Assembly (NCBI GenBank): GCA_964016885.1
Contig: OZ024743.1
Location: 313,596,001 to 313,660,000 of the forward strand
Direction: 5' to 3'
DNA: 64,000 nt
Origin: Eledone cirrhosa
Taxonomy: Eukaryota
Numbering within the stretch: position 1 is the first letter of the stretch; every line of letters begins with the position of its first letter. Both the position numbers and the translations under genes were made by a program. A model generated the notes under the pieces. It was not told the DNA's origin and ran no database searches. It was given only the letters and a program-made list of their open reading frames with translations. This document shows, piece after piece, positions 5,245 to 56,998 of this stretch.

Positions 5245-5385
5245 ATGTTTATCCCGGGTCCTACAGTAACTAAGGTATTCAATACACAGCAGAGTATAAA
5301 TATTTAATATAGAAATCATCAGGGAGCCTGATGATTTCTCCCGAATGAAACAGTTCTAGTCCTGTAGAAACCATTCCTATATCGA
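5245..5385. mobile_element. Small fold-back fragment with HHR-like core; same family as 52337-52490
   Basis: AGAAATCATCAGG-GAG-CCTGATGATTTCT palindrome, then CTGATGA-TTTCTCCCGAAT-GAAA-CAGTTCTAGTC. The 5' strand of stem I is not identifiable. Confidence 0.5.
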
Positions 5386-5444
5386 ATATGGAAATATATA
5401 TATATATATATATATATACACGATAGTGCAGGAATCAATAGTAC

Positions 5445-6015
5445 ATAGTGTTATTAAATGTTCGGTGAATCCATACGTACATATATGTATGTGTGCATGT
5501 ATGTATATATATATACATACTACTATACGTCTGTATACATATATGTATGTACGTATACATATATGTATGTACGTATACATACTTATATTTAAGTAACAGC
5601 CGTACTAAGAGTGAGAAATGAAATTTCGTTTAATTTTTTTCTGTTTATCGTTTTCGGTGCACCCGGCCGATTAACCCACTAGGATACGCAAATTAGGCTG
5701 CTCAGCCGTTAATATGCATAAGGAAAGTATATACTTTCAGACGTTCAATCATCTGGCAGGAAGGTATACGTTGCTGACGATAGCTAATAAGCTTGAAACT
5801 AGTACAGCGTTCCTTTGTCAGTGTTGAACAAATGAGCAACGATGGTTGCTAGACACTGTACGGCTTAATTCGGGATGTTTGTTTACAAATACACCGAGCA
5901 TTATAATAAATGTTCGGTGAATCCATACATACATATATGTATGTGTGCATGTATGTTTATATATATACATACTACTCTACGTCTGTATACATATATGTAC
6001 GTATACATACTTATA
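5445..6015 (+). mobile_element. Diverged partial-tandem copy (about 1.3 units) of the 466-bp HHR repeat family
   Basis: Shares TACTAAGAGTGAGAAATGAAATTTCG, CAAATTAGGCTGCTCAGCCGTTAAT, AGGAAAGTATATACTTTC and TGTCAGTGTTGAACAAA with the 45-48 kb array. Confidence 0.9.
5768..5810 (+). ncRNA. Type I hammerhead ribozyme (466-family variant)
   Basis: ACGTTG-CTGACGA-T-AGCT-AATA-AGCT-T-GAAA-CTAG-TA-CAGCGT. Confidence 0.88.
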
Positions 6016-6025
6016 TATATATATA

Positions 6026-6576
6026 TGGTCGGGTCGTTGGCGACTAAACTGGCAACCCCACCAAGGTTTCTTGGTGAGGAGGGTGGCTTTGGACATCCTG
6101 CAGGACTAAAAACAAAACCTGTCAAAAGGCAAAGGGGCTCTTAAGAGTCAATAGCCATCCAAAATCACCGGGAGAGATGACCCCTTAGCCTTTGTCAAGG
6201 CAGAATTCTAGGAGAAGGAAAACTCTGATATAACACCTGCAACCCTGATGGTATCCAATGATGTTGAATTGTTCTTCTTTTTGGTAAATATCATCTTGGT
6301 TAAGAGAGTGGGACTGGCTTTGTGCAGTGCCTTTGCTCACTATAAAAGCTTCACAGCACAGGCATTGCTTTATATCTGGAGATCTCTCTGCACTTGTCGT
6401 CACATGGTACCATTGGCCCAGCACTATGTGTCAATAATTGTCACAAGTGTAGTGTTTGTACCAGAGTTTTCAAGTCGCTGGCTGGACTAAAAAGTCACAT
6501 TCGTTCAGCGCATTGGTAGGGGTTCTCCTACATGGATATAAAGTAGTGGCCGTACTCGAAAACGAGTTGGCAGCCA

Positions 6577-13722: not shown

Positions 13723-13777
<55 letters not shown>

Positions 13778-13985
13778 ATATTTGGGGAGGGTCATATTTG
13801 CGTAATATTGCCAGAATTAATAACAGAACACACTCACTGTTTGGTTGGTTTTCGCTTCTCGCTGTCTTTTATATATATATATATCTGGGATCTAACTTAC
13901 TCGGTCCTCAATGTTGCCATTGACTGACCGGCGGTCAAAAATAATACAGATACAATATAGACACAAACACATATATATAGTTTAC

Positions 13986-14038
13986 ATAATTTACATAAAT
14001 CTTTCGTTGCACATCTGCAACATCGTCAGTGGTGTTAT
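13986..14038 (-). ncRNA. Type I hammerhead motif (family B, left arm)
   Basis: Reverse complement of the motif at 14383-14434. Confidence 0.65.
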
Positions 14039-14382
14039 ATTCATTGTTCCTCCTGTTGTGTTGTATGTCTACGCCATTTTTTTTTTGTTCAGTCTGTCTA
14101 TATATTTATTTATTTATTTGCTTGTTTGTTTATCTTATTTTATTTTGTCTTCTTTGCGCATGCGTTTGCGTGTGTGTATAGTGTTATGTGTGATGTGTGA
14201 CTAGTGTGTATTGTGTATGTGTCACACATCACACATAACACTATACACACACGCAAACGCATGCGCAAAGAAGACAAAATAAAATAAGATAAACAAACAA
14301 GCAAATAAATAAATAAATATATAGACAGACTGAACAAAAAAAATGGCGTAGACATACAACACAACAGGAGGAACAATGAATA

Positions 14383-14434
14383 TAACACCACTGACGATGT
14401 TGCAGATGTGCAACGAAAGATTTATGTAAATTAT
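14383..14434 (+). ncRNA. Type I hammerhead motif (family B, right arm)
   Basis: CTGACGA-T-GTTGCA-GATG-TGCAAC-GAAA-GATT-TA. Stem II is a perfect 6 bp; stem I is weak. Confidence 0.65.
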
Positions 14435-14710
14435 GTAAACTATATATATGTGTTTGTGTCTATATTGTATCTGTATTATTTTTGACCGCCGGTCAGTCAA
14501 TGGCAACATTGAGGACCGAGTAAGTTAGATCGCAGATATATATATATAAAAGACAGCGAGAAGCGAAAACCAACCAAACAGTGAGTGTGTTCTGTTATTA
14601 ATTCTGGCAATATTACGCAAATATGACCCTCCCCAAATATAACAATATCTGTTTCGACACACGATTTCATATAAAAAACCTCGCAAAACTAATATATATA
14701 TATATATATA

Positions 14711-27112: not shown

Positions 27113-27427
27113 GAACAATAGAATGATATGCATCATATATACACTCTATATAAACTATATACATTGTATATCATATGATGTTTGTTTAACAGAAATATAA
27201 AGGCTGAAATAGCTTGACACCATTGTCGTCGTCCCAACTCCTTTCAACTATATATATATATATATATATATATTGTTATACTTTGGGAGGGTCATGTTGC
27301 ACATAAGAAACACACGCACCAAATTCTTTCACTTCAATTTATTATATATTTATAAATTTATAAATTTACAAATTTATAAATTTCTGGTTGGTTGGTTGGT
27401 TCCACAACCAGACAGTTGTTTATATAT

Positions 27428-27472
27428 AGTCATAGTTCTTTCGTCACACACTCTGTGACCTCTTCAGTGACT
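27428..27472 (-). ncRNA. Type I hammerhead in the 3' pLTR of family A
   Basis: AGTCA-CTGAAGA-G-GTCACA-GAGTG-TGTGAC-GAAA-GAAC-TA-TGACT. The upstream pLTR copy (31472-31516) has a broken CUUAAGA core. Confidence 0.8.
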
Positions 27473-27672
27473 GGGGATTCCTTTCTTTGTTTCTGTGCCT
27501 CTCCTTTGTTCTGTCCTACGCCATTTTGTTTCTGTGTGTGTGTTGTGTGCTCAGTCTGCGCATGCGCCACATCCGGGTGTCTGTGTGTGTTTATGTTCAT
27601 TTATTTATTTGTTTATTTACATGTTACTGGTTGGTTGTTTGTTCTATGTGTGTGTGTGTTTTCATTTTGTCC

Positions 27673-30600
27673 TTAATTGTAAGTTGTGATGTTGCTGTTC
27701 CACTCATATTTTCTATTTAATTTTGGTTGTAATTCTTTTATGTTTATTGCCTCTGTAATTTGTCTAAACATTGCGTCTTTTCTGTGTGTAGATTCTATTT
27801 TTATTTCTATGTTCTCTAATTTACCCTTGTGTTCTATCTTAGCATGTTGGTAGAGTACATATGATTCTTTATTATCCTGAAGGTCTCGCCAGTGTTCATT
27901 TATCCGTTCCCCTACACTACGAGCTGTCTCACCTATGTACACTATATTTTTGTCTCTACATTGTCCTTCAGTACATCTTATGCTATACACTACATTTCTA
28001 GTTTTACAGTTAATATGGGGGCTTATTTTACAGGTTATGCATTTCTTATCTATACATGAGGGTCTTTGAAAAAGGTATGTATTGCTAATAAGTGTTTTTA
28101 CGGAAATACCTGGTCTTTCTACTATCTTAATATTGAGTTTATGTTTATTTAGGGCCCTTCTAAATGTGTAAGCTAATTCACCTCTAGGGGTTGTATTGAT
28201 GAACATTACACTCTGGTATTTATTGCTATCATACCATGAGTTTATTCTATTAGCCTTGTTCCTAGTTCTTTCTATTCTATTCCAAAATTTGCTCCTATAC
28301 AAGGGGCAGGTCCCATTTGTGTCATTATTTACCATTTTTTCCCATTTGGTTCTGGCTCCTCTATACACTCTGATTTTATCTCTCTGATTGTAGCCAGAGA
28401 ACTGCATACGGTAGATGAAGTGTTGTATGTGTCTCTCTAGTTCTTCGGGGTTGCACATGCGGGACACATTTCTCATCACCCGTACCAAATCCGCAATCAG
28501 TATGTTGATTTTGGTATGGTCCGAAATGGCCGAGTTTCGGTGGATCAGATGTTTGGAAGTCATGGGTTTGGCATAATGGAAATGGAGGATTTGTTTTTTG
28601 TTGTTAATGGTATCTAACTAGAGCTCTGTGTCTAGTACAGGTAATCGATGGTTGGGGTGTTTACTTGGGTAGTCTATAGTAACTCTAATGCTCTGGTGGA
28701 TGGAGTTTGCTATTTGCTGGATGCTTTCCATTGTGTTTTTCTCTAGTTCCTGACTGTTCTCTAGTGGGGGTGTCTTAACTACGTTGTTTATATCATCTAC
28801 GTAGCGGGAGTACATTATCAGGGTTAAGGGGTCTACTAGTTGTTCTTTAAGTTTAAGTTTAAGTCTACTGTCCCACCATACCATGAATAAGTTAGCTATG
28901 TCGCCTGCAATGCTAACACCAATGGCTGCTCCTAACTCTTGGGCATATTTTTTTCCATTAAATTTGAACGTATGTTCCTTAAGGGTTAATTTTATGCTGG
29001 CCCCTACCGCATGTGCAATCATTTTCTTCAGTTCATCGTGGTTTTCGGGTGTCCGTATGGCTCTGGTCCACCCGTTCCATCTATCTGTGTGGGTTTTCTT
29101 GGCCATTGAGGTAATGGTAGGTTTTCTGCCTCTTGCTGGTCTTGTAGGGCACAGGTTGCTAAGGTCATATCTGTCTAGGTAACTATTACTATAGGTAAGC
29201 TTAAGTAGGAGTCCCAGCTCACTGGTATCAATCCCACGGAACTCAACCTTGCTCTCACTGATCATTTCTACGCATTTCTCGACAGCAAAATCCACGTCAA
29301 TAGATGGATACAGGGACACAACATCCATACTGCTATTATGCAGTTTGTTAGGTCCCCAGATCGGTTATTCACGCCGATTCTGCTGAGGAGGTCCTCCGTG
29401 CTGTCACATACATCTGGGGACATTTCAATGATGGGGCGTATGATCAGGGAGAGGAAGTAGGACAGTTTGTAGTTACTAGCAATGTTAACTCCACAGACTG
29501 GCCGTGTTGGTGGTCCCGCGACAGGGTCACAGCCCGTTTTATGGTGTTTTCGAAGCCCATACAACGCCGGCACTTCATTGTTCCAGGCCTGGAAGTTGTT
29601 GGCAGTCCTTTTGTTGGGCTGCATTATATTCGTCCACATCACCATATGGGCATTGAGGGCTTTTTCTCTATCCTCATGCTCCTGTGGTGTTACCTCTCTT
29701 GTGTTAGTGATGTGGGGTTGCATTGCCTGGATGTAGTTTGGCAGGCTGTCAACCGACATTCTGCCAGACTTGTCTGTTGGAAAGCATGCTATCTCTCCAT
29801 TACGTGAGCGCTGCATGAGCTTACGCAAGCCATTTACAGATTTTTCTCCTAGTTGCTGGGCCTCCATTCTATTATGCTTCTTGCTATACTGTTCTATAAT
29901 ATTTCTAAGTTCGGATTTAGCTATACTAAATTGTGCTTCTGTTTGTTCATCGACCTGCAACGGCAATTGCGTGCGTTTGTTAAATGGTAAAGTCGTGGCG
30001 TGGACTCGTTGCAGGTCGAATGATTTATCGGAGGGATTATAAAACGTAGAGTTCCAGGCTGCTGCTTTATGTGTACTAGTACTATTGTTATTGTTAGTTG
30101 TGTTGTTTCTATTTCTATTTCTACCAACAGCCTCATGGTTGTTTCTATGTCTCTCATAATTACTCCTATCTCTTTCCACTGGCTCATTGTTGTTATCTAC
30201 CCTATTTTGTGTGTCTGTGTGTTCGTCTTGGTTATTCTCTTTGTCCTTAGTCTCCCTTCTCCTTTTAATCCTATTACTTTCCCTTATTTCTGTGATTTCT
30301 GTGCTACTGTCATTACTTGTTTTCTGTGTCTGTGTGTTTGTTAAGATTGTGGTGGTGGTGAGAGGCATTGAATGCGTGTGTGTTGTTGTTGTTGTTGATG
30401 TGTGTTGTTGTTGTCTCCGTGTGTGTTATTGTTGTTGTGTGTGTTGTTATTGTTGTTTGTGTCTGCGTGTCTGGGTATGTTGTTATTGTTGTTGTTGTTG
30501 ATGTGTGTGTTGTTGTTATTGTTGTTTGTGTCTGTGTGTCTGTTGTTGTTGGGATGTGTGTTGTATATGTGTGTGCGTATATTGTTGGTTTTGTTTTTGT

Positions 30601-31357
30601 TTTTGAGGCTCCAGCGTAGTTTTGTAAATGATTTTTCTATTTCTGACAGACAACTAATCATATTTACCTTCTTGAATGTCGCAAATTCCGGGGGCAAACA
30701 TAACGCAGACATCTCATCGTTATCTATTCTTGCGTTACCATATATATTTGTGTTATTGTTGTTGTTGAACTCTTCTGTTAATGAGGTGTCGGCCATATTT
30801 ATACCGTCAATTTTGTCGGGATATCTATTGGTATTCTTTATAGTATCCTGATTTAGCTTTATCTGCTTAAGCCACTTTAGTTTCTTGTTAAAGTGCTTAT
30901 CACATTCTTGAGTAATGTACTGTTCTTCAGGGCGTATAAGGCTTATAAATATTAGTTTCTCTCTTGGTGTGGTGATCCTAGCTATTTCTTGTATTAGGTT
31001 ACGCTTATGTTTTTCTTGATGACTTAATTCTCTATAGATCTTCTTTTTTATGTTTAGAATTAATGTTCGTTTTAGCTTATCTGCTTGTTTTTTGGTGAGT
31101 TGTAATCTTCTAACGTCGGTGTTGATGGTGTTGGTGTAGACTTGGGATGAGGCACATTGTTTTATGAAGCGTAGTTGTCGAGATGTTATGGTTTTTCGTA
31201 GACAACAGAACATGGTGGTTTTCAGTATCTTGTTAGCCTGGCTAAGGCTTACAATATTTCGTTTCTGAATTTGTTTAGCAAGATTCTTTATCTGAAATCG
31301 TGTGTTGAAACCGATATTGTTATACTTTGGGAGGGTCATGTTGCCAATAAGAAACAC
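27673..31357 (-). pseudogene. PLE polyprotein (N-terminal domain, Asn/Thr/His-rich linker, RT, GIY-YIG); two frameshifts and one TAG
   Basis: ORFs 31357-30341, 30368-29268, 29328-28618 and 28563-27673 join up: PTDKSGRM, LYGLRKHHK, PTRPV, MDVVSLYPSI, SRYVDD, VYIGETARS. The TAG at 28618 corresponds to Trp in the 19945 copy. Confidence 0.95.
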
Positions 31358-32318
31358 ACGCTCCAGTTGCTTTCACTTCAATTTATTATATATTTATAAA
31401 TTTATAAATTTACAAATTTATAAATTTCTGGTTGGTTGGTTGGTTCCACAACCAGACAGTTGTTTATATATAGTCATAGTTCTTTCGTTACACACTCTGT
31501 GACCTCTTAAGTGACTGGGGATTCCTTTCTTTGTTTCTGTGCCTCTCCTTTGTTCTGTCCTACGCCATTTTGTTTCTGTGTGTGTGTTGTGTGCTCAGTC
31601 TGCGCATGCGCCACATCTGGGTGTCTGTGTGTGTTTATGTTCATTTATTTATTTGTTTATTTACATGTTACTGGTTGGTTGTTTGTTCTATGTGTGTGTG
31701 TGTTTTCATTTTGTCCTTAATTGTAAGTTGTGATGTTGCTGTTCCACTCATATTTTCTATTTAATTTTGATTGTAATTCTTTTATGTTTATTGCCTCTGT
31801 AATTTGTCTAAACATTGCGTCTTTTCTGTGTGTAGATTCTATTTTTATTTCTATGTTCTCTAATTTAGCATGTTGGTAGAGTACAGATGATTCTTTATTA
31901 TCTTGAAGGTCTCGCCAGTGTTCATTTATCCGTTCCCCTACACTACGAGCTGTCTCACCTATGTACACTATATTTTTGTCTCTACATTGTCCTTCAGTAC
32001 ATCTTATGCTATACACTACATTTCTAGTTTTACAGTTAATATGGGGGCTTATTTTACAGGTTATGCATTTCTTATCTATACATGAGGGTCTTTGAAAAAG
32101 GTATGTCTTGCTAATAAGTGTTTTTACGGAGGTACTTGGTCTTTCTACTATCTTAATATTGAGTTTATGTTTATTTAGGGCCCTTCTAAATTTGTAAGCT
32201 AATTCACTTCTAGGGGTAAATTAGAGAACATAGAAATAAACATAGAAATAAAAATAGAATCTACACACAGAAAAAGAATTTCTGATAAAGAATCTTGCTA
32301 AACAAATTCAGAAACGAA

Positions 32319-44598: not shown

Positions 44599-44634
<36 letters not shown>

Positions 44635-44870
44635 AGTATGCATGTATACGTACATACATATATGTATACAGACGTACAGTAGCATGCACATATATATATA
44701 CACATACATATATACATACACATGCATACAGGTACACATACATATATGCACGTATCAGTTTAGCGGCGCTAACGTCGCTTTGTTCGTTTGTAAACAAACT
44801 GAACAGCCTGAATTTATGCCATACGGTGTTAAGGCAACCACGTCACCTTTTTGTTCAACACTGACACAGG

Positions 44871-44915
44871 AACGATGTACTAGTTTCAAGCTTGTTAGCT
44901 ATCATCAGCACCGTT
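44871..44915 (-). ncRNA. Type I hammerhead (inverted copy of the 466-bp unit)
   Basis: Reverse complement of 45368-45412. Confidence 0.92.
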
Positions 44916-45367
44916 TACCCATCTGCCAGATAGTTGAACGTTCGAAAGTATATACTTTCCTTATGAAAATTAACGGCTGAGCAGCCTAATTTGCATATTG
45001 AGTGAGTTAAATCGGTCAGGCATACCGAAAACGATAAATTGAAACAAAATGAAAACGAAATTTCATTTCTCACTCTTAGTATGGCACTTACTTAAATGTA
45101 AGTATGCATGTATACGTACATACATATATGTATACAGACGTACAGTAGCATATATATATGTATGTACGTATACATGCATACTTACATTTAAGTAAGTGCC
45201 ATACTAAGAGTGAGAAATGAAATTTCGTTTTCATTTTGTTTCAATTTATCGTTTTCGGTATGCCTGACCGATTTAACTCACTCAATATGCAAATTAGGCT
45301 GCTCAGCCGTTAATTTTCATAAGGAAAGTATATACTTTCGAACGTTCAACTATCTGGCAGATGGGTA

Positions 45368-45412
45368 AACGGTGCTGATGATAGCTAACAAGCTTGAAAC
45401 TAGTACATCGTT
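45368..45412 (+). ncRNA. Type I hammerhead; identical copies start at 45834, 46300, 46766, 47232 and 47698
   Basis: AACGGTG-CTGATGA-T-AGCT-AACA-AGCT-T-GAAA-CTAG-TA-CATCGTT. Stem I is 7 bp, stem III is the palindrome ACTAGT, predicted cleavage after GUA at 45405. Confidence 0.93.
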
Positions 45413-48104
45413 CCTGTGTCAGTGTTGAACAAAAAGGTGACGTGGTTGCCTTAACACCGTATGGCATAAATTCAGGCTGTTCAGTTTGTTTACAAACGAA
45501 CAAAGCGACGTTAGCGCCGCTAAACTGATACGTGCATATATGTATGTGTACCTGTATGCATGTGTATGTATATATGTATGTGTATATATATATGTGCATG
45601 CTACTGTACGTCTGTATACATATATGTATGTACGTATACATGCATACTTACATTTAAGTAAGTGCCATACTAAGAGTGAGAAATGAAATTTCGTTTTCAT
45701 TTTGTTTCAATTTATCGTTTTCGGTATGCCTGACCGATTTAACTCACTCAATATGCAAATTAGGCTGCTCAGCCGTTAATTTTCATAAGGAAAGTATATA
45801 CTTTCGAACGTTCAACTATCTGGCAGATGGGTAAACGGTGCTGATGATAGCTAACAAGCTTGAAACTAGTACATCGTTCCTGTGTCAGTGTTGAACAAAA
45901 AGGTGACGTGGTTGCCTTAACACCGTATGGCATAAATTCAGGCTGTTCAGTTTGTTTACAAACGAACAAAGCGACGTTAGCGCCGCTAAACTGATACGTG
46001 CATATATGTATGTGTACCTGTATGCATGTGTATGTATATATGTATGTGTATATATATATGTGCATGCTACTGTACGTCTGTATACATATATGTATGTACG
46101 TATACATGCATACTTACATTTAAGTAAGTGCCATACTAAGAGTGAGAAATGAAATTTCGTTTTCATTTTGTCTCAATTTATCGTTTTCGGTATGCCTGAC
46201 CGATTTAACTCACTCAATATGCAAATTAGGCTGCTCAGCCGTTAATTTTCATAAGGAAAGTATATACTTTCGAACGTTCAACTATCTGGCAGATGGGTAA
46301 ACGGTGCTGATGATAGCTAACAAGCTTGAAACTAGTACATCGTTCCTGTGTCAGTGTTGAACAAAAAGGTGACGTGGTTGCCTTAACACCGTATGGCATA
46401 AATTCAGGCTGTTCAGTTTGTTTACAAACGAACAAAGCGACGTTAGCGCCGCTAAACTGATACGTGCATATATGTATGTGTACCTGTATGCATGTGTATG
46501 TATATATGTATGTGTATATATATATGTGCATGCTACTGTACGTCTGTATACATATATGTATGTACGTATACATGCATACTTACATTTAAGTAAGTGCCAT
46601 ACTAAGAGTGAGAAATGAAATTTCGTTTTCATTTTGTTTCAATTTATCGTTTTCGGTATGCCTGACCGATTTAACTCACTCAATATGCAAATTAGGCTGC
46701 TCAGCCGTTAATTTTCATAAGGAAAGTATATACTTTCGAACGTTCAACTATCTGGCAGATGGGTAAACGGTGCTGATGATAGCTAACAAGCTTGAAACTA
46801 GTACATCGTTCCTGTGTCAGTGTTGAACAAAAAGGTGACGTGGTTGCCTTAACACCGTATGGCATAAATTCAGGCTGTTCAGTTTGTTTACAAACGAACA
46901 AAGCGACGTTAGCGCCGCTAAACTGATACGTGCATATATGTATGTGTACCTGTATGCATGTGTATGTATATATGTATGTGTATATATATATGTGCATGCT
47001 ACTGTACGTCTGTATACATATATGTATGTACGTATACATGCATACTTACATTTAAGTAAGTGCCATACTAAGAGTGAGAAATGAAATTTCGTTTTCATTT
47101 TGTTTCAATTTATCGTTTTCGGTATGCCTGACCGATTTAACTCACTCAATATGCAAATTAGGCTGCTCAGCCGTTAATTTTCATAAGGAAAGTATATACT
47201 TTCGAACGTTCAACTATCTGGCAGATGGGTAAACGGTGCTGATGATAGCTAACAAGCTTGAAACTAGTACATCGTTCCTGTGTCAGTGTTGAACAAAAAG
47301 GTGACGTGGTTGCCTTAACACCGTATGGCATAAATTCAGGCTGTTCAGTTTGTTTACAAACGAACAAAGCGACGTTAGCGCCGCTAAACTGATACGTGCA
47401 TATATGTATGTGTACCTGTATGCATGTGTATGTATATATGTATGTGTATATATATATGTGCATGCTACTGTACGTCTGTATACATATATGTATGTACGTA
47501 TACATGCATACTTACATTTAAGTAAGTGCCATACTAAGAGTGAGAAATGAAATTTCGTTTTCATTTTGTTTCAATTTATCGTTTTCGGTATGCCTGACCG
47601 ATTTAACTCACTCAATATGCAAATTAGGCTGCTCAGCCGTTAATTTTCATAAGGAAAGGATATACTTTCGAACGTTCAACTATCTGGCAGATGGGTAAAC
47701 GGTGCTGATGATAGCTAACAAGCTTGAAACTAGTACATCGTTCCTGTGTCAGTGTTGAACAAAAAGGTGACGTGGTTGCCTTAACACCGTATGGCATAAA
47801 TTCAGGCTGTTCAGTTTGTTTACAAACGAACAAAGCGACGTTAGCGCCGCTAAACTGATACGTGCATATATGTATGTGTACCTGTATGCATGTGTATGTA
47901 TATATGTATGTGTATATATATATGTGCATGCTACTGTACGTCTGTATACATATATGTATGTACGTATACATGCATACTTACATTTAAGTAAGTGCCATAC
48001 TAAGAGTGAGAAATGAAATTTCGTTTTCATTTTGTTTCAATTTATATATATATATATATATATATAAACATAAGTCAATTGAATGAACTCATAATCCTTT
48101 ATTT

Positions 48105-55985: not shown

Positions 55986-56281
55986 TCTCTCCTTCCTCTT
56001 CTTGTAAGCCTTTTCACCGCTCACATATATGTATATATAAGCGTGATGCGTATGCATAAGTATCAAGTGGTGGCATTACTCGAAACTGAGTTGCAGCTAT
56101 CATCATATATACATATAGAATTTGGATATAATGCTCTGAAATAACGATATATATGTGAAGACAAACATAGAATATTCGAAAATATTCTGTATGTTTATAA
56201 TAAACATTTCGAAGACCCAATCGCTATAGAATAGAATACGTCACGTATTACAATTTGAGATACTCGATAAAAGCAAGGGAA

Positions 56282-56324
56282 GTAACCTACGCGTTTCATT
56301 CTTATTAGAAATCATCAGGATTAC
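56282..56324 (-). ncRNA. Type I hammerhead (312-bp unit, left arm)
   Basis: Reverse complement of 56808-56850. Confidence 0.9.
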
Positions 56325-56807
56325 ATATCCAGTGCTTTTATCGAGAATGACACAGCTAGAGACTTATAGAATACTTAGCTGTGTACAGGAACTGGTTTGA
56401 AAGAGCGGTTGCCGGTCCGACAGAAATTAGAATTTGGATATAATGCTCTGAAATAGCGATATATATGTGAAGACAAACATAGAATATTCGAAAATATTCT
56501 GTATGTTTATAATAAACATTTCGAAGACCCAATCGCTATAGAATAGCTTTTATCGAGAATCTCAAATTGTAATACGTGACGTATTCTATTCTATAGCGAT
56601 TGGGTCTTCGAAATGTTTATTATAAACATACAGAATATTTTCGAATATTCTATGTTTGTCTTCACATATATATCGCTATTTCAGAGCATTATATCCAAAT
56701 TCTAATTTCTGCCGGACCGGCAACCGCTCTTTCAAACCAGTTCCTGTACACAGCTAAGTATTCTATAAGTCTCTAGCTGTGTCATTCTCGATAAAAGCAC
56801 TGGATAT

Positions 56808-56850
56808 GTAATCCTGATGATTTCTAATAAGAATGAAACGCGTAGGTTAC
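56808..56850 (+). ncRNA. Type I hammerhead (312-bp unit, right arm)
   Basis: GTAATC-CTGATGA-T-TTCT-AATA-AGAA-T-GAAA-CGCG-TA-GGTTAC; stem III is the palindrome ACGCGT. Confidence 0.9.
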
Positions 56851-56998
56851 TTCCCTTGCTTTTATCGAGAATCTCAAATTGTAATACGTGACGTATTCTA
56901 TTCTATAGCGATTGGGTCTTCGAAATGTTTATTATAAACATACAGAATATTTTCGAATATTCTATGTTTGTCTTCATATATACATATGTTTATCTTTG

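What the first reader, a model, noticed from the sequence alone, without database searches (positions are those of the whole stretch)
5445..6015. Diverged sister copy of the 466 family preserves the ribozyme by compensatory change
Seen: the unit is visibly diverged from the 45-48 kb array, yet the core changes only at the variable position 7 (CUGACGA vs CUGAUGA). The stem II change is confined to the loop (AAUA vs AACA). Stem I swaps a G-U pair for U-G (ACGGUG/CAUCGU vs ACGUUG/CAGCGU). It also starts at a different point of the unit. Inference: selection on ribozyme function, and a circularly permuted template.
Basis: partly seen in the sequence, partly recalled or inferred. Interest (0 to 1): 0.75.

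Follow-up and report, generated by a model that had tools for sequence, protein, structure and literature searches.

The report
Hammerhead retrozyme copy in TA microsatellite
This stretch is a 1.25-unit copy of an abundant non-coding repeat that carries a hammerhead (self-cutting RNA) motif, a known kind of animal mobile element called a retrozyme, likely pasted into a TA microsatellite by a Penelope-type reverse transcriptase; its ribozyme differs from the neighbouring array's only at tolerated or mutually compensating positions.

Summary
Window 5450-6016 is 1.25 units of a 452-bp repeat, 83% identical in its unique part to the 466-bp array at 45-48 kb. Its hammerhead (5768-5810) differs at four places only: N7, one loop-2 base, and both sides of stem I pair 2.3-1.3 (G.U to U.G).

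It is not a lone diverged copy. Its exact 43-nt hammerhead occurs 4,217 times in the genome, and the array's occurs 9,990 times.

The case for selection on the ribozyme is mixed. Inside this family the hammerhead is not significantly better conserved than the rest of the unit. The pattern of its changes is non-random (P about 0.003). U.U-mismatch copies sit at the base of the U.G clade, with weak node support. An unrelated 310-bp family shares only the hammerhead, with covarying stems.

The different start point is 5' truncation. The 3' ends fall at two fixed UAUA sites abutting (TA)n. Head-to-head arms are common (17 against 0 in the other orientation), and copies read through the cleavage site. 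This is the Penelope-like insertion footprint on an uncut or circular RNA.

It is a known kind, a non-LTR retrozyme. This scan had already described the family elsewhere in this genome. RNA data could not be obtained.

The parts
5450..6016 (+). Sister (subfamily B) retrozyme insertion, 1.25 units of a 452-bp period. The 5' end is about 100 nt after the cleavage site; the 3' end is at fixed terminus 1 (...CATACTTATAT).
5768..5810 (+). Type I hammerhead motif: stem I 5768-5773 with 5805-5810, core CUGACGA 5774-5780, stem II 5782-5785 with 5790-5793, GAAA 5795-5798. Predicted cleavage is between 5804 and 5805. The covarying pair is 5771/5807.
5761..5815 (+). Extended hammerhead including the distal part of helix I (AAGG 5761-5764 with CCUU 5812-5815) and an internal loop (UAU opposite U).
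5470..5590 (+). Microsatellite-like (TATG/TACA) stretch of the unit. In the array unit the equivalent stretch folds into a long hairpin.
6017..6026 (.). (AT)5 directly after the 3' terminus: remnant of the target microsatellite.
5394..5418 (.). (AT)12 upstream: the other side of the target microsatellite. It is followed by about 31 nt (5419-5449) that I could not assign.
5250..5393 (.). Fragment of another hammerhead-bearing element (family E). Two arms meet head to head at 5311-5339, and the fragment ends in the same (AT)n tract.
45150..48047 (+). 466-bp array (subfamily A), 6.2 units. Its 3' end is at fixed terminus 2 (...CAATTTAT) followed by (AT)n.
44627..45133 (-). Inverted arm of the same insertion, 100% complementary to 45150-45656 with 16 nt between the arms. 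Its outer end is at terminus 1, next to (TA)n.
56100..56970 (.). Family D (310-nt unit) head-to-head pair. It has the same hammerhead architecture but different stems, with hammerhead cores at 56284-56318 (-) and 56814-56848 (+).

Best explanation
Window 5450-6016 is a 5'-truncated, 1.25-unit insertion of one subfamily of a non-coding 430-466-bp repeat that carries a type I hammerhead motif (a non-LTR retrozyme), likely copied by a Penelope-like reverse transcriptase into a (TA)n microsatellite from an RNA that ran unbroken across the ribozyme's cleavage site (a circle or an uncut multimer).

Shown:
- The motif, its four differences from the array's motif, and the subfamily structure.
- Copy numbers in the thousands on many chromosomes.
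- Two fixed 3' termini at UAUA sites inside the unit, each abutting genomic (TA)n.
- Variable 5' ends, and head-to-head inverted arms.
- Abundant Penelope-like genes (reverse transcriptase plus GIY-YIG nuclease) in the same genome.

Inferred:
- A nicked (TA)n target would anneal to a UAUA site of the RNA and prime cDNA synthesis. Synthesis runs one or more times round the unit and stops at a variable point.
- The second nick would often prime a second cDNA at the other UAUA site, which gives the inverted arm.
- The hammerhead is predicted to cut multimeric transcripts into units, probably acting as a dimer, because helix III is one base pair capped by a palindromic tetraloop.
- Source lineages that keep a working ribozyme would leave more copies. 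That would explain why changes between subfamilies hit only N7, loop 2 and a compensated pair, while individual inserted copies decay freely.
- This copy has a single hammerhead, so it could not release a unit-length RNA itself.
For: Motif and differences.

Abundance:
- 38,512 matches to the motif pattern, against 1 for the control.
- 4,217 exact sister-type hammerheads and 9,990 exact array-type hammerheads.
- 1,133 first-look candidates for the unique part; the 40 full-length matches scored were 95-100% identical, the 100% one being this copy itself.

Structure, on 46 distinct 59-nt variants (similar on 38 variants):
- 94.2% of cells are paired, against 84.3 +/- 0.7 in shuffles (0 of 500 shuffles reach the observed value).
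- 10 of 16 pairs change on both sides (7 of 500).
- Covariation score 0.288 against 0.119 (0 of 500).
- Slid controls reach at most 49.7% paired.
- Pair 2.3-1.3 is U.G in 20 rows, G.U in 12, A-U in 9, C-G in 1 and unpaired in 4.

Other evidence on the ribozyme:
- Family D shares only a 26-nt hammerhead core with families A and B; nothing else aligns.
- Four random changes keep the core and all pairs in 0.33% of 200,000 trials.
- A tree built without the hammerhead columns puts three U.U copies between the G.U clade and the U.G clade.
- The U.U form has 142 exact copies against 4,217 for U.G.

Insertion anatomy:
- Of 49 aligned pieces in 30 loci, 16 end at about 216 nt and 15 at about 276 nt after the cleavage site. 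The 5' ends are spread over the unit, with 1 of 49 within 15 nt of the cleavage site.
- Of the 24 3' junctions read, out of 30 loci, 12 are terminus 1, 9 are terminus 2 and 3 are other. 18 of 24 are followed by (TA)n, against a background of 4.6% in the window and 12.7% in the Penelope loci.
- Adjacent same-family hammerheads within 1 kb: 31 ++, 23 --, 17 -+ and 0 +-.
- 12 of 30 loci have a minus arm directly followed by a plus arm. In 7 of these 12 one arm ends at each terminus, and in none do both arms end at the same terminus.
- The 25 nt just after the cleavage site are preceded by A17 in 8,360 copies and by another base in 138, or 1.6%.

Penelope-like elements:
- GIY-YIG gives 10,597 first-look candidates; 150 of 150 scored exceed the cut-off.
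- A 938-aa open frame matches GIY-YIG above the cut-off and RVT_1 just below it (28.0 against 29.6 bits).
- Published Penelope features are 5' truncation, partial tandems, an inverted 5'-truncated copy at the 5' end, and a (TA)n bias (PMC8557442, passages).

The array unit's RNA folds at -160.2 kcal/mol, z = -8.65.
Against: - Transcription, cleavage and circles are therefore untested here.
- Rfam's hammerhead models do not reach threshold.
- The 47-nt motifs alone fold no better than shuffles (z from -0.5 to -1.7).
- Inside the A/B/C family the hammerhead is not significantly better conserved than the rest of the unit (P = 0.09 and 0.15). Several other blocks of the unit are equally conserved.
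- Most double changes in the pair counts come from a single split, family D against A-C, so independent events are few.
- The nodes that place the U.U copies below the U.G clade have support of only 0.30-0.77. The node joining them to that clade has 0.95.
- No similarity to A or B was found in 22 Penelope loci, about 140 kb, so the partner element is not identified.
- My copies were found through sequence next to the hammerhead, so short copies that lack it would have been missed.
Confidence: 0.75

Rival explanations
1. The ribozyme motif looks preserved only because the subfamilies are young relatives. The four differences fell at harmless places by luck, and there is no selection on cleavage.
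For: - Hammerhead columns vary between subfamilies in 4 of 43 cases against 53 of 257 elsewhere, Fisher P = 0.094.
- Within subfamily B, private changes are 21/1419 in the hammerhead against 189/9075 elsewhere, P = 0.15.
- Other blocks of the unit are just as conserved.
- Tree nodes that order the U.U copies are weak.
Against: - The placement of the four changes has P of about 0.003 under random substitution.
- Three standard pair types (U.G, G.U, A-U) recur at the same stem position.
- Family D keeps the same core and architecture, with different stems, in an otherwise unalignable unit.
- Private mutations in dead copies do hit core bases, so the core is mutable when it is not under selection.
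Confidence: 0.15
2. These are not independent non-autonomous elements. They are terminal repeats (pLTR pieces) of autonomous Penelope-like elements, left behind by 5' truncation.
For: - Penelope-like genes are very abundant.
- The family E hammerhead lies within a few kb of Penelope open frames in L094, L098 and L102.
- Li et al. 2026 (bioRxiv 10.64898/2026.07.22.740005; Results part 1 and Discussion read) relate Xenopus retrozymes to pLTRs.
Against: - BLAST of units A and B against 22 Penelope loci found nothing. Only family D and the shared hammerhead gave short matches.
- Arrays of up to 6 or more complete units exist without an open frame. The longest stop-free stretch is 60 aa in the sister copy and 114 aa in the array.
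Confidence: 0.07
3. This is ordinary satellite DNA spread by unequal crossing-over or DNA-level rolling-circle copying. The hammerhead is a relic, and there is no RNA intermediate.
For: Tandem organisation with near-identical units in the array (0-2 differences between the five full units compared). Li et al. 2026 discuss satellite birth from such repeats.
Against: - Thousands of short dispersed copies lie on many chromosomes.
- The 3' termini are fixed while the 5' ends vary.
- Flanks are (TA)n.
- The orientation bias of inverted arms is 17 to 0. This is a footprint of target-primed reverse transcription, not of crossing-over.
Confidence: 0.03

Closest known systems
Metazoan non-LTR retrozymes (Cervera and de la Pena 2020, PMC7229834; sections 13, 14, 17 and passages read)
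   Same: [quoted passage not shown]
- No LTR and no open frame.
- GC below 50% (0.34-0.37 here).
- Thousands of copies, and coexistence with Penelope-like elements.
- A highly self-paired predicted unit RNA.
   Different: Expression and circularity are not shown here. The paper gives no base-level insertion anatomy. Here the 3' ends sit at two fixed UAUA sites in (TA)n, and head-to-head arms are common.
Amphibian (newt, axolotl) retrozyme hammerheads HHR_Amex1 and HHR_Amex2 (PMC7229834, section 15 passages)
   Same: One-base-pair helix III capped by a palindromic tetraloop, as in Amex1 (CUAG here, CGCG in family D). A U.U mismatch at the base of helix II, as in Amex2. Those ribozymes cleave well only as dimers.
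   Different: Both features occur in the same motif here. Dimer dependence is only predicted. No sequence relationship to the amphibian repeats was tested.
Penelope-like element insertions (Craig et al. 2021, PMC8557442, passages read)
   Same: A high degree of 5' truncation, partial tandems, an inverted 5'-truncated copy at the 5' end, and a (TA)n target preference (reported there for Naiads).
   Different: The inserted sequence has no reverse transcriptase or nuclease gene. The 60-nt offset between the two termini may correspond to their 30-40-bp 'tail', but this was not tested.
Retrozymes as non-autonomous derivatives of Penelope-like elements (Li, Clavereau and Pollet 2026, bioRxiv 10.64898/2026.07.22.740005; Results part 1 and Discussion read)
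   Same: Co-occurrence of the two element types. Unit length within their 51-972 bp range. Mostly short arrays alongside many monomers.
   Different: Their link rests on pLTR similarity in Xenopus. Here no pLTR similarity was found for units A and B, and the link rests on the insertion footprint.
Twin priming of LINE-1 (recalled from general knowledge; no paper read here)
   Same: Two cDNAs primed at the two strands of one target would give an inverted 5' part joined head to head to the 3' part.
   Different: Here both arms start at defined internal sites of a repeat unit and may run over several units.

Membership tests
Hammerhead ribozyme, type I | Conserved core CUGANGA ... GAAA ... with a U-H cleavage site (core list recalled from established knowledge) | tested here: met
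   CUGACGA at 5774-5780, GAAA at 5795-5798, GUA|C at 5802-5805. The core columns are invariant in 46 distinct variants except N7.
Hammerhead ribozyme, type I | Helices I and II supported by covariation; helix I open (the 5' and 3' ends lie in helix I) | tested here: met
   Helix I: 5 of 6 pairs change on both sides. Helix II: 2 of 4 pairs do. Overall 94-96% of cells are paired, with 0 of 500 shuffles as high. Independent events are few.
Hammerhead ribozyme, type I | A stable helix III | tested here: not met
   Only A15.1-U16.1, plus a C-G pair that would close a 2-nt loop, which amounts to one pair capped by a palindromic tetraloop. Neither pair shows a standard-pair variant. This matches the weak helix III of the dimer-dependent amphibian motifs.
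Hammerhead ribozyme, type I | A match to the curated Rfam hammerhead models at gathering score | tested here: not met
   0 hits at gathering score. No hammerhead hit for the sister copy at E up to 10. The array scores 18.5 bits against 52 for HH9.
Hammerhead ribozyme, type I | Site-specific self-cleavage | not testable with these tools
   Needs in vitro transcription assays.
Non-LTR retrozyme (animals) | Tandem or dispersed repeats of about 150-450 bp (up to 972), each with a type I hammerhead | tested here: met
   Units of 452 and 466 bp, with 1.25 and 6.2 copies in the window. Other loci have periods of 420-538 bp.
Non-LTR retrozyme (animals) | Non-coding, no LTR, low GC | tested here: met
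   Longest stop-free stretch 60 aa (sister) and 114 aa (array); GC 0.34-0.37. No ORF of 130 aa or more overlaps either element. PBS and PPT motifs were not searched for.
Non-LTR retrozyme (animals) | Expressed as unit-length linear and circular RNA | not testable with these tools
Non-LTR retrozyme (animals) | Coexistence with Penelope-like elements | tested here: met
   10,597 GIY-YIG candidates, with 150 of 150 scored above the cut-off. One 938-aa open frame matches GIY-YIG above the cut-off and RVT_1 just below it, 28.0 against 29.6 bits.
Penelope-type insertion footprint | 5' truncation, partial tandems, and an inverted 5'-truncated copy at the 5' end | tested here: met
   Variable 5' ends in 30 loci. 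12 of 30 loci have a minus arm followed directly by a plus arm. Orientation counts are 17 -+ against 0 +-.
Penelope-type insertion footprint | Microsatellite, (TA)n, target bias | tested here: met
   18 of 24 3' junctions are followed by (TA)n, against 4.6% and 12.7% background. 6 of the 30 loci were left out as too complex to read.
Penelope-type insertion footprint | A 30-40-bp 'tail' at one end | tested here: inconclusive
   The two termini lie 60 nt apart, and paired arms use one each in 7 of 12 loci. About 31 unassigned nt lie at 5419-5449. No direct test of equivalence was made.

The most novel reading that the evidence does not exclude
The genomic copies record the integration step at base resolution. 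A Penelope-type enzyme nicks (TA)n, and each of the two nicked strands anneals to one of two UAUA sites 60 nt apart on a circular retrozyme RNA. Two cDNAs then run in opposite directions round the circle. Separately, the ribozyme's stem I passed through a live U.U-mismatch stage before the compensating change, which would show that ribozyme fitness steers which lineage spreads.
Probability: 0.4. Interest if true: 0.5.

Novelty: new member of a known kind. Interest (0 to 1): 0.3.

Why it matters
The papers read here state that how animal retrozymes are mobilised remains to be elucidated (bioRxiv 10.64898/2026.07.22.740005, Discussion; PMC7229834, Discussion).

This family offers thousands of young insertions with readable ends: two fixed priming sites, (TA)n targets and head-to-head arms. 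It also offers a natural series of stem I variants (G.U, A-U, U.U, U.G) that could be assayed for cleavage. Both would make the proposed ribozyme-circle-Penelope cycle directly testable.

The element itself is of a known kind, and this scan has already described the same family at other places in this genome. The single copy at 5450-6016 adds a case, not a principle.

Tried and rejected
- Rfam scans gave no usable hammerhead call. The many microRNA-family matches are low-complexity hairpin artefacts, all below gathering score.
I did not try another route.
I replaced them with exact strings.
- Co-folding two 47-nt motifs gave dimers through other palindromes such as AAGCUU, so it says nothing about a helix III dimer.
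There is no excess.
One of 49 pieces ends there, and 138 copies against 8,360 lack A17 before the site.
- The search for the autonomous partner found no similarity to A or B in 22 Penelope loci.
- Pfam on nine long open frames of the window found no family, so nothing there helps to place the host.
- The CTGACGA...GAAAG motif at 13992 and 14391 has no helix I or helix III partner. I do not count it as a hammerhead.

Full report
**What is at the coordinates.**
Window 5450-6016 holds 1.25 units of a repeat with a 452-bp period (84% self-match at an offset of 452; alignment). Each unit has two parts. One is a microsatellite-like TATG/TACA stretch of about 120 nt. The other is a unique part of about 320 nt that contains a hammerhead motif at 5768-5810.

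The 466-bp array at 45150-48047 has 6.2 units at 99% identity and carries the same motif.
- The core differs only at N7 (C at 5778 against T).
- Stem II is identical, and its loop differs by one base (AAUA against AACA).
- The stem I pair 2.3-1.3 is U.G (5771/5807), where the array has G.U.
- The element starts at another point of the unit.

The unique parts of the two units differ by 17%.

Rfam does not recognise the motif. There were 0 hits at gathering score. No hammerhead appeared among 80 weak matches around the sister copy. The array scored 18.5 bits against a gathering score of 52. The reason is visible in the sequence: helix III is a single A-U pair capped by the palindromic tetraloop CUAG, and helix II starts with a U.U mismatch.

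**It is a member of a large family, not a lone diverged copy.**
A search of the window's own 3.0-Gb genome with 5600-5905 gave 1,133 first-look candidates. Forty full-length matches were scored: this copy itself at 100%, and 39 others at 95-96% identity on at least 11 contigs. One further 41-nt match was also listed.

The pattern CTGANGATNNNNAAYANNNNTGAAAC matches 38,512 times, against 1 for the reversed control. Exact 43-nt hammerheads number 4,217 for the sister type and 9,990 for the array type.

From 317 kb of fetched loci I extracted 84 copies of the unique part, of which 74 are distinct. They cluster into subfamilies B (38 copies, the sister's), C (13), A (11, the array's) and A2 (2). 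Ten rows fell in single or small clusters and were left out of the four-way comparison.

All four combinations of N7 (C or U) with loop AAUA or AACA exist.

**Is the ribozyme under selection? Evidence against a simple yes.**
Between the four subfamilies, 4 of 43 hammerhead columns vary against 53 of 257 other columns (Fisher P = 0.094).

Among the 33 subfamily B copies that were found without reference to the hammerhead, private changes are 21/1419 (1.48%) in the hammerhead and 189/9075 (2.08%) elsewhere (P = 0.15). Only 16 of these 33 copies still have the majority hammerhead, and private changes hit core bases.

Inserted copies therefore decay freely. Other blocks of the unit are equally conserved.

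**Is the ribozyme under selection? Evidence for.**
The four changes between subfamilies are N7, one loop-2 base, and the two sides of one pair. Random placement of four substitutions leaves the core and all 12 pairs intact in 0.33% of 200,000 trials. The classification of positions as free or constrained is recalled hammerhead knowledge.

The same pair occurs as U.G in 20 distinct variants, G.U in 12, A-U in 9, C-G in 1 and unpaired in 4.

A tree built from the non-hammerhead columns has this order: a G.U clade (support 0.999), then one A-U copy, then three U.U-mismatch copies, then the large U.G clade. The node joining the U.U copies to the U.G clade has support 0.95. The nodes that order them inside it have only 0.30-0.77, so the stepwise path G.U to U.U to U.G is suggested, not proven.

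The U.U form has 142 exact copies against 4,217 for U.G.

A second double change is visible in the distal part of helix I: U.G in subfamily A, an A/G mismatch in A2, and A-U in B.

The strongest point comes from family D, a 310-nt unit also present at window 56100-56970. It shares nothing alignable with families A and B except 26 nt of hammerhead core at 81% identity. It keeps the same architecture with different letters:
- Stem II is UUCU/AGAA where A and B have AGCU/AGCU.
- Stem I is GUARUC/GRUUAC where A and B have ACGNUG/CANCGU.
- The tetraloop is CGCG where A and B have CUAG, so it remains palindromic.

On 46 distinct 59-nt variants, 94.2% of cells are paired against 84.3 +/- 0.7 in shuffles (0 of 500). 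Ten of 16 pairs change on both sides (7 of 500). The covariation score is 0.288 against 0.119 (0 of 500). Slid controls reach at most 49.7% (similar on 38 variants). Much of this signal rests on the single split between family D and families A-C, so independent events are few.

**Why the element starts elsewhere.**
I aligned 30 loci against a natural four-unit array. Of the 49 aligned pieces:
- 16 end about 216 nt after the cleavage site.
- 15 end about 276 nt after it.
- The 5' ends are scattered over the unit. One of 49 lies within 15 nt of the cleavage site.

I read 24 of the 30 3' junctions directly. L004, L007, L010, L019, L020 and L028 were left out as too complex. The element ends either at ...CATACTTATAT (12 junctions) or at ...CCGTTTATA (9), with 3 others. 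18 of 24 run straight into genomic (TA)n, against 4.6% of 20-nt windows in this window and 12.7% in the Penelope loci.

The window obeys the same rules:
- The sister copy ends at terminus 1 at 6016 and is followed by (AT)5.
- The array ends at terminus 2 at 48047 and is followed by (AT)n.
- The array has an inverted arm at 44627-45133 that is 100% complementary to 45150-45656. The outer end of that arm is terminus 1, next to (TA)n.

Such head-to-head arms are general. Among adjacent same-family hammerheads within 1 kb I count 31 ++, 23 --, 17 -+ and 0 +-. Twelve of 30 loci have a minus arm directly followed by a plus arm. In 7 of these 12 one arm ends at each terminus, and in none do both arms use the same one.

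The insertions also read through the cleavage site. The 25 nt after the site are preceded by A17 in 8,360 copies and by another base in 138, or 1.6%.

The template was therefore not an RNA cut at the ribozyme site. It was an uncut multimer or a religated circle, and my data do not tell these apart. The start point varies because cDNA synthesis stops at variable points, while the priming sites are fixed.

**Who copies it.**
Three features seen here are the published hallmarks of Penelope-like element insertions: 5' truncation, partial tandems, and an inverted 5'-truncated copy at the 5' end. A (TA)n preference is reported for the Naiad clade (PMC8557442, passages read).

The genome has 10,597 first-look GIY-YIG candidates, with 150 of 150 scored above the cut-off. 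One 938-aa open frame matches GIY-YIG above the cut-off and RVT_1 just below its cut-off.

I did not find the partner element. Units A and B have no similarity to 22 Penelope loci.

A further hammerhead family (E) has a proper 4-bp helix III. It lies near Penelope open frames in three loci. A head-to-head fragment of it sits at window 5250-5393, in the same (AT)n tract as the sister copy.

**Comparison with what is known.**
The element fits the non-LTR retrozymes of animals (PMC7229834) in these respects:
- Unit size.
- A type I hammerhead in each unit.
- No open frame.
- GC of 0.34-0.37.
- Thousands of copies.
- Penelope coexistence.
- A strongly self-paired unit RNA (z = -8.65).

Its hammerhead combines the two weaknesses described for the axolotl motifs, which cleave well only as dimers. 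Dimeric action is therefore predicted here, not shown.

Li et al. 2026 propose that retrozymes derive from Penelope-like elements and state that the mechanisms remain to be elucidated. A text search for retrozyme with microsatellite or target-primed returned 89 papers holding at least two of the three terms, of which 12 were listed. Nothing in those listings describes the two fixed termini. I did not read those papers beyond the listing, except the ones named above.

**Earlier notes of this scan.**
Earlier notes report the same family at other places in this genome, and the same two-terminus, TA-microsatellite, head-to-head footprint in other genomes. My counts agree with that footprint.

They do not reproduce two statements in one note. 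I find no sense-strand A>G excess (37 against 51) and no sign that cut RNA units were the template.

**What is missing.**
There is no cleavage assay and no identified autonomous partner. Sampling was by sequence next to the hammerhead, so short copies that lack it would have been missed.

**Verdict.**
The element is a known kind. The compensatory reading is reasonable but only moderately supported. The permutation is explained by Penelope-style insertion.

Noticed in passing
window 5250-5393; L094, L098, L102, L024: A further hammerhead family (E): CUGAUGA U UUC UAAA GAA U GAAA CAG-loop-CUG UA|GAAUCU, with a 4-bp helix III and stem I AGAUUC/GAAUCU. It lies within a few kb of Penelope-like open frames and ends in (AT)n about 115 nt after the cleavage site. 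The window copy is a head-to-head fragment whose junction falls inside the hammerhead.
   Followed up: partly
window 56100-56970: Family D (310-nt unit) as a near-perfect palindrome centred near 56555, with one hammerhead per arm. An array of at least eight units lies in L053-L060.
   Followed up: partly
window 13760-14650: A near-perfect palindrome centred near 14205. Each arm holds CTGACGA...GAAAG, but there are no partners for helices I and III. It is probably not a hammerhead, and the nature of the palindromic element is unknown.
   Followed up: no
L001-L030: In head-to-head insertions the two arms use different 3' termini 60 nt apart (7 of 12 loci, and none with the same terminus twice). 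The window's 466-bp insertion does the same. This may be the Penelope 'tail'.
   Followed up: partly
L076 and L077 (G000 C4 near 76.30 Mb and 83.81 Mb): Two minimal hammerhead-like motifs of another type (CUGAAGA A GGGC UUAU GCCC GAAAC GUC and CUGAUGA A GGAC UACU GUCC GAAAC GUU) lie close to retrozyme copies. They were not examined further.
   Followed up: no
window 27342-27536 and 31386-31580, with 27673-31372 (-): The same pair of short tandem repeats occurs twice, 4,044 bp apart, flanking four consecutive long open frames (314, 248, 385 and 343 aa) that have no Pfam match. This may be an unclassified mobile element or a duplication.
   Followed up: no
window 5419-5449: About 31 nt between the upstream (AT)12 and the first aligned base of the sister copy match neither the unit nor its reverse complement convincingly. 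In L009 the equivalent stretch is a 22-nt inverted piece of the unit's terminus 2.
   Followed up: partly
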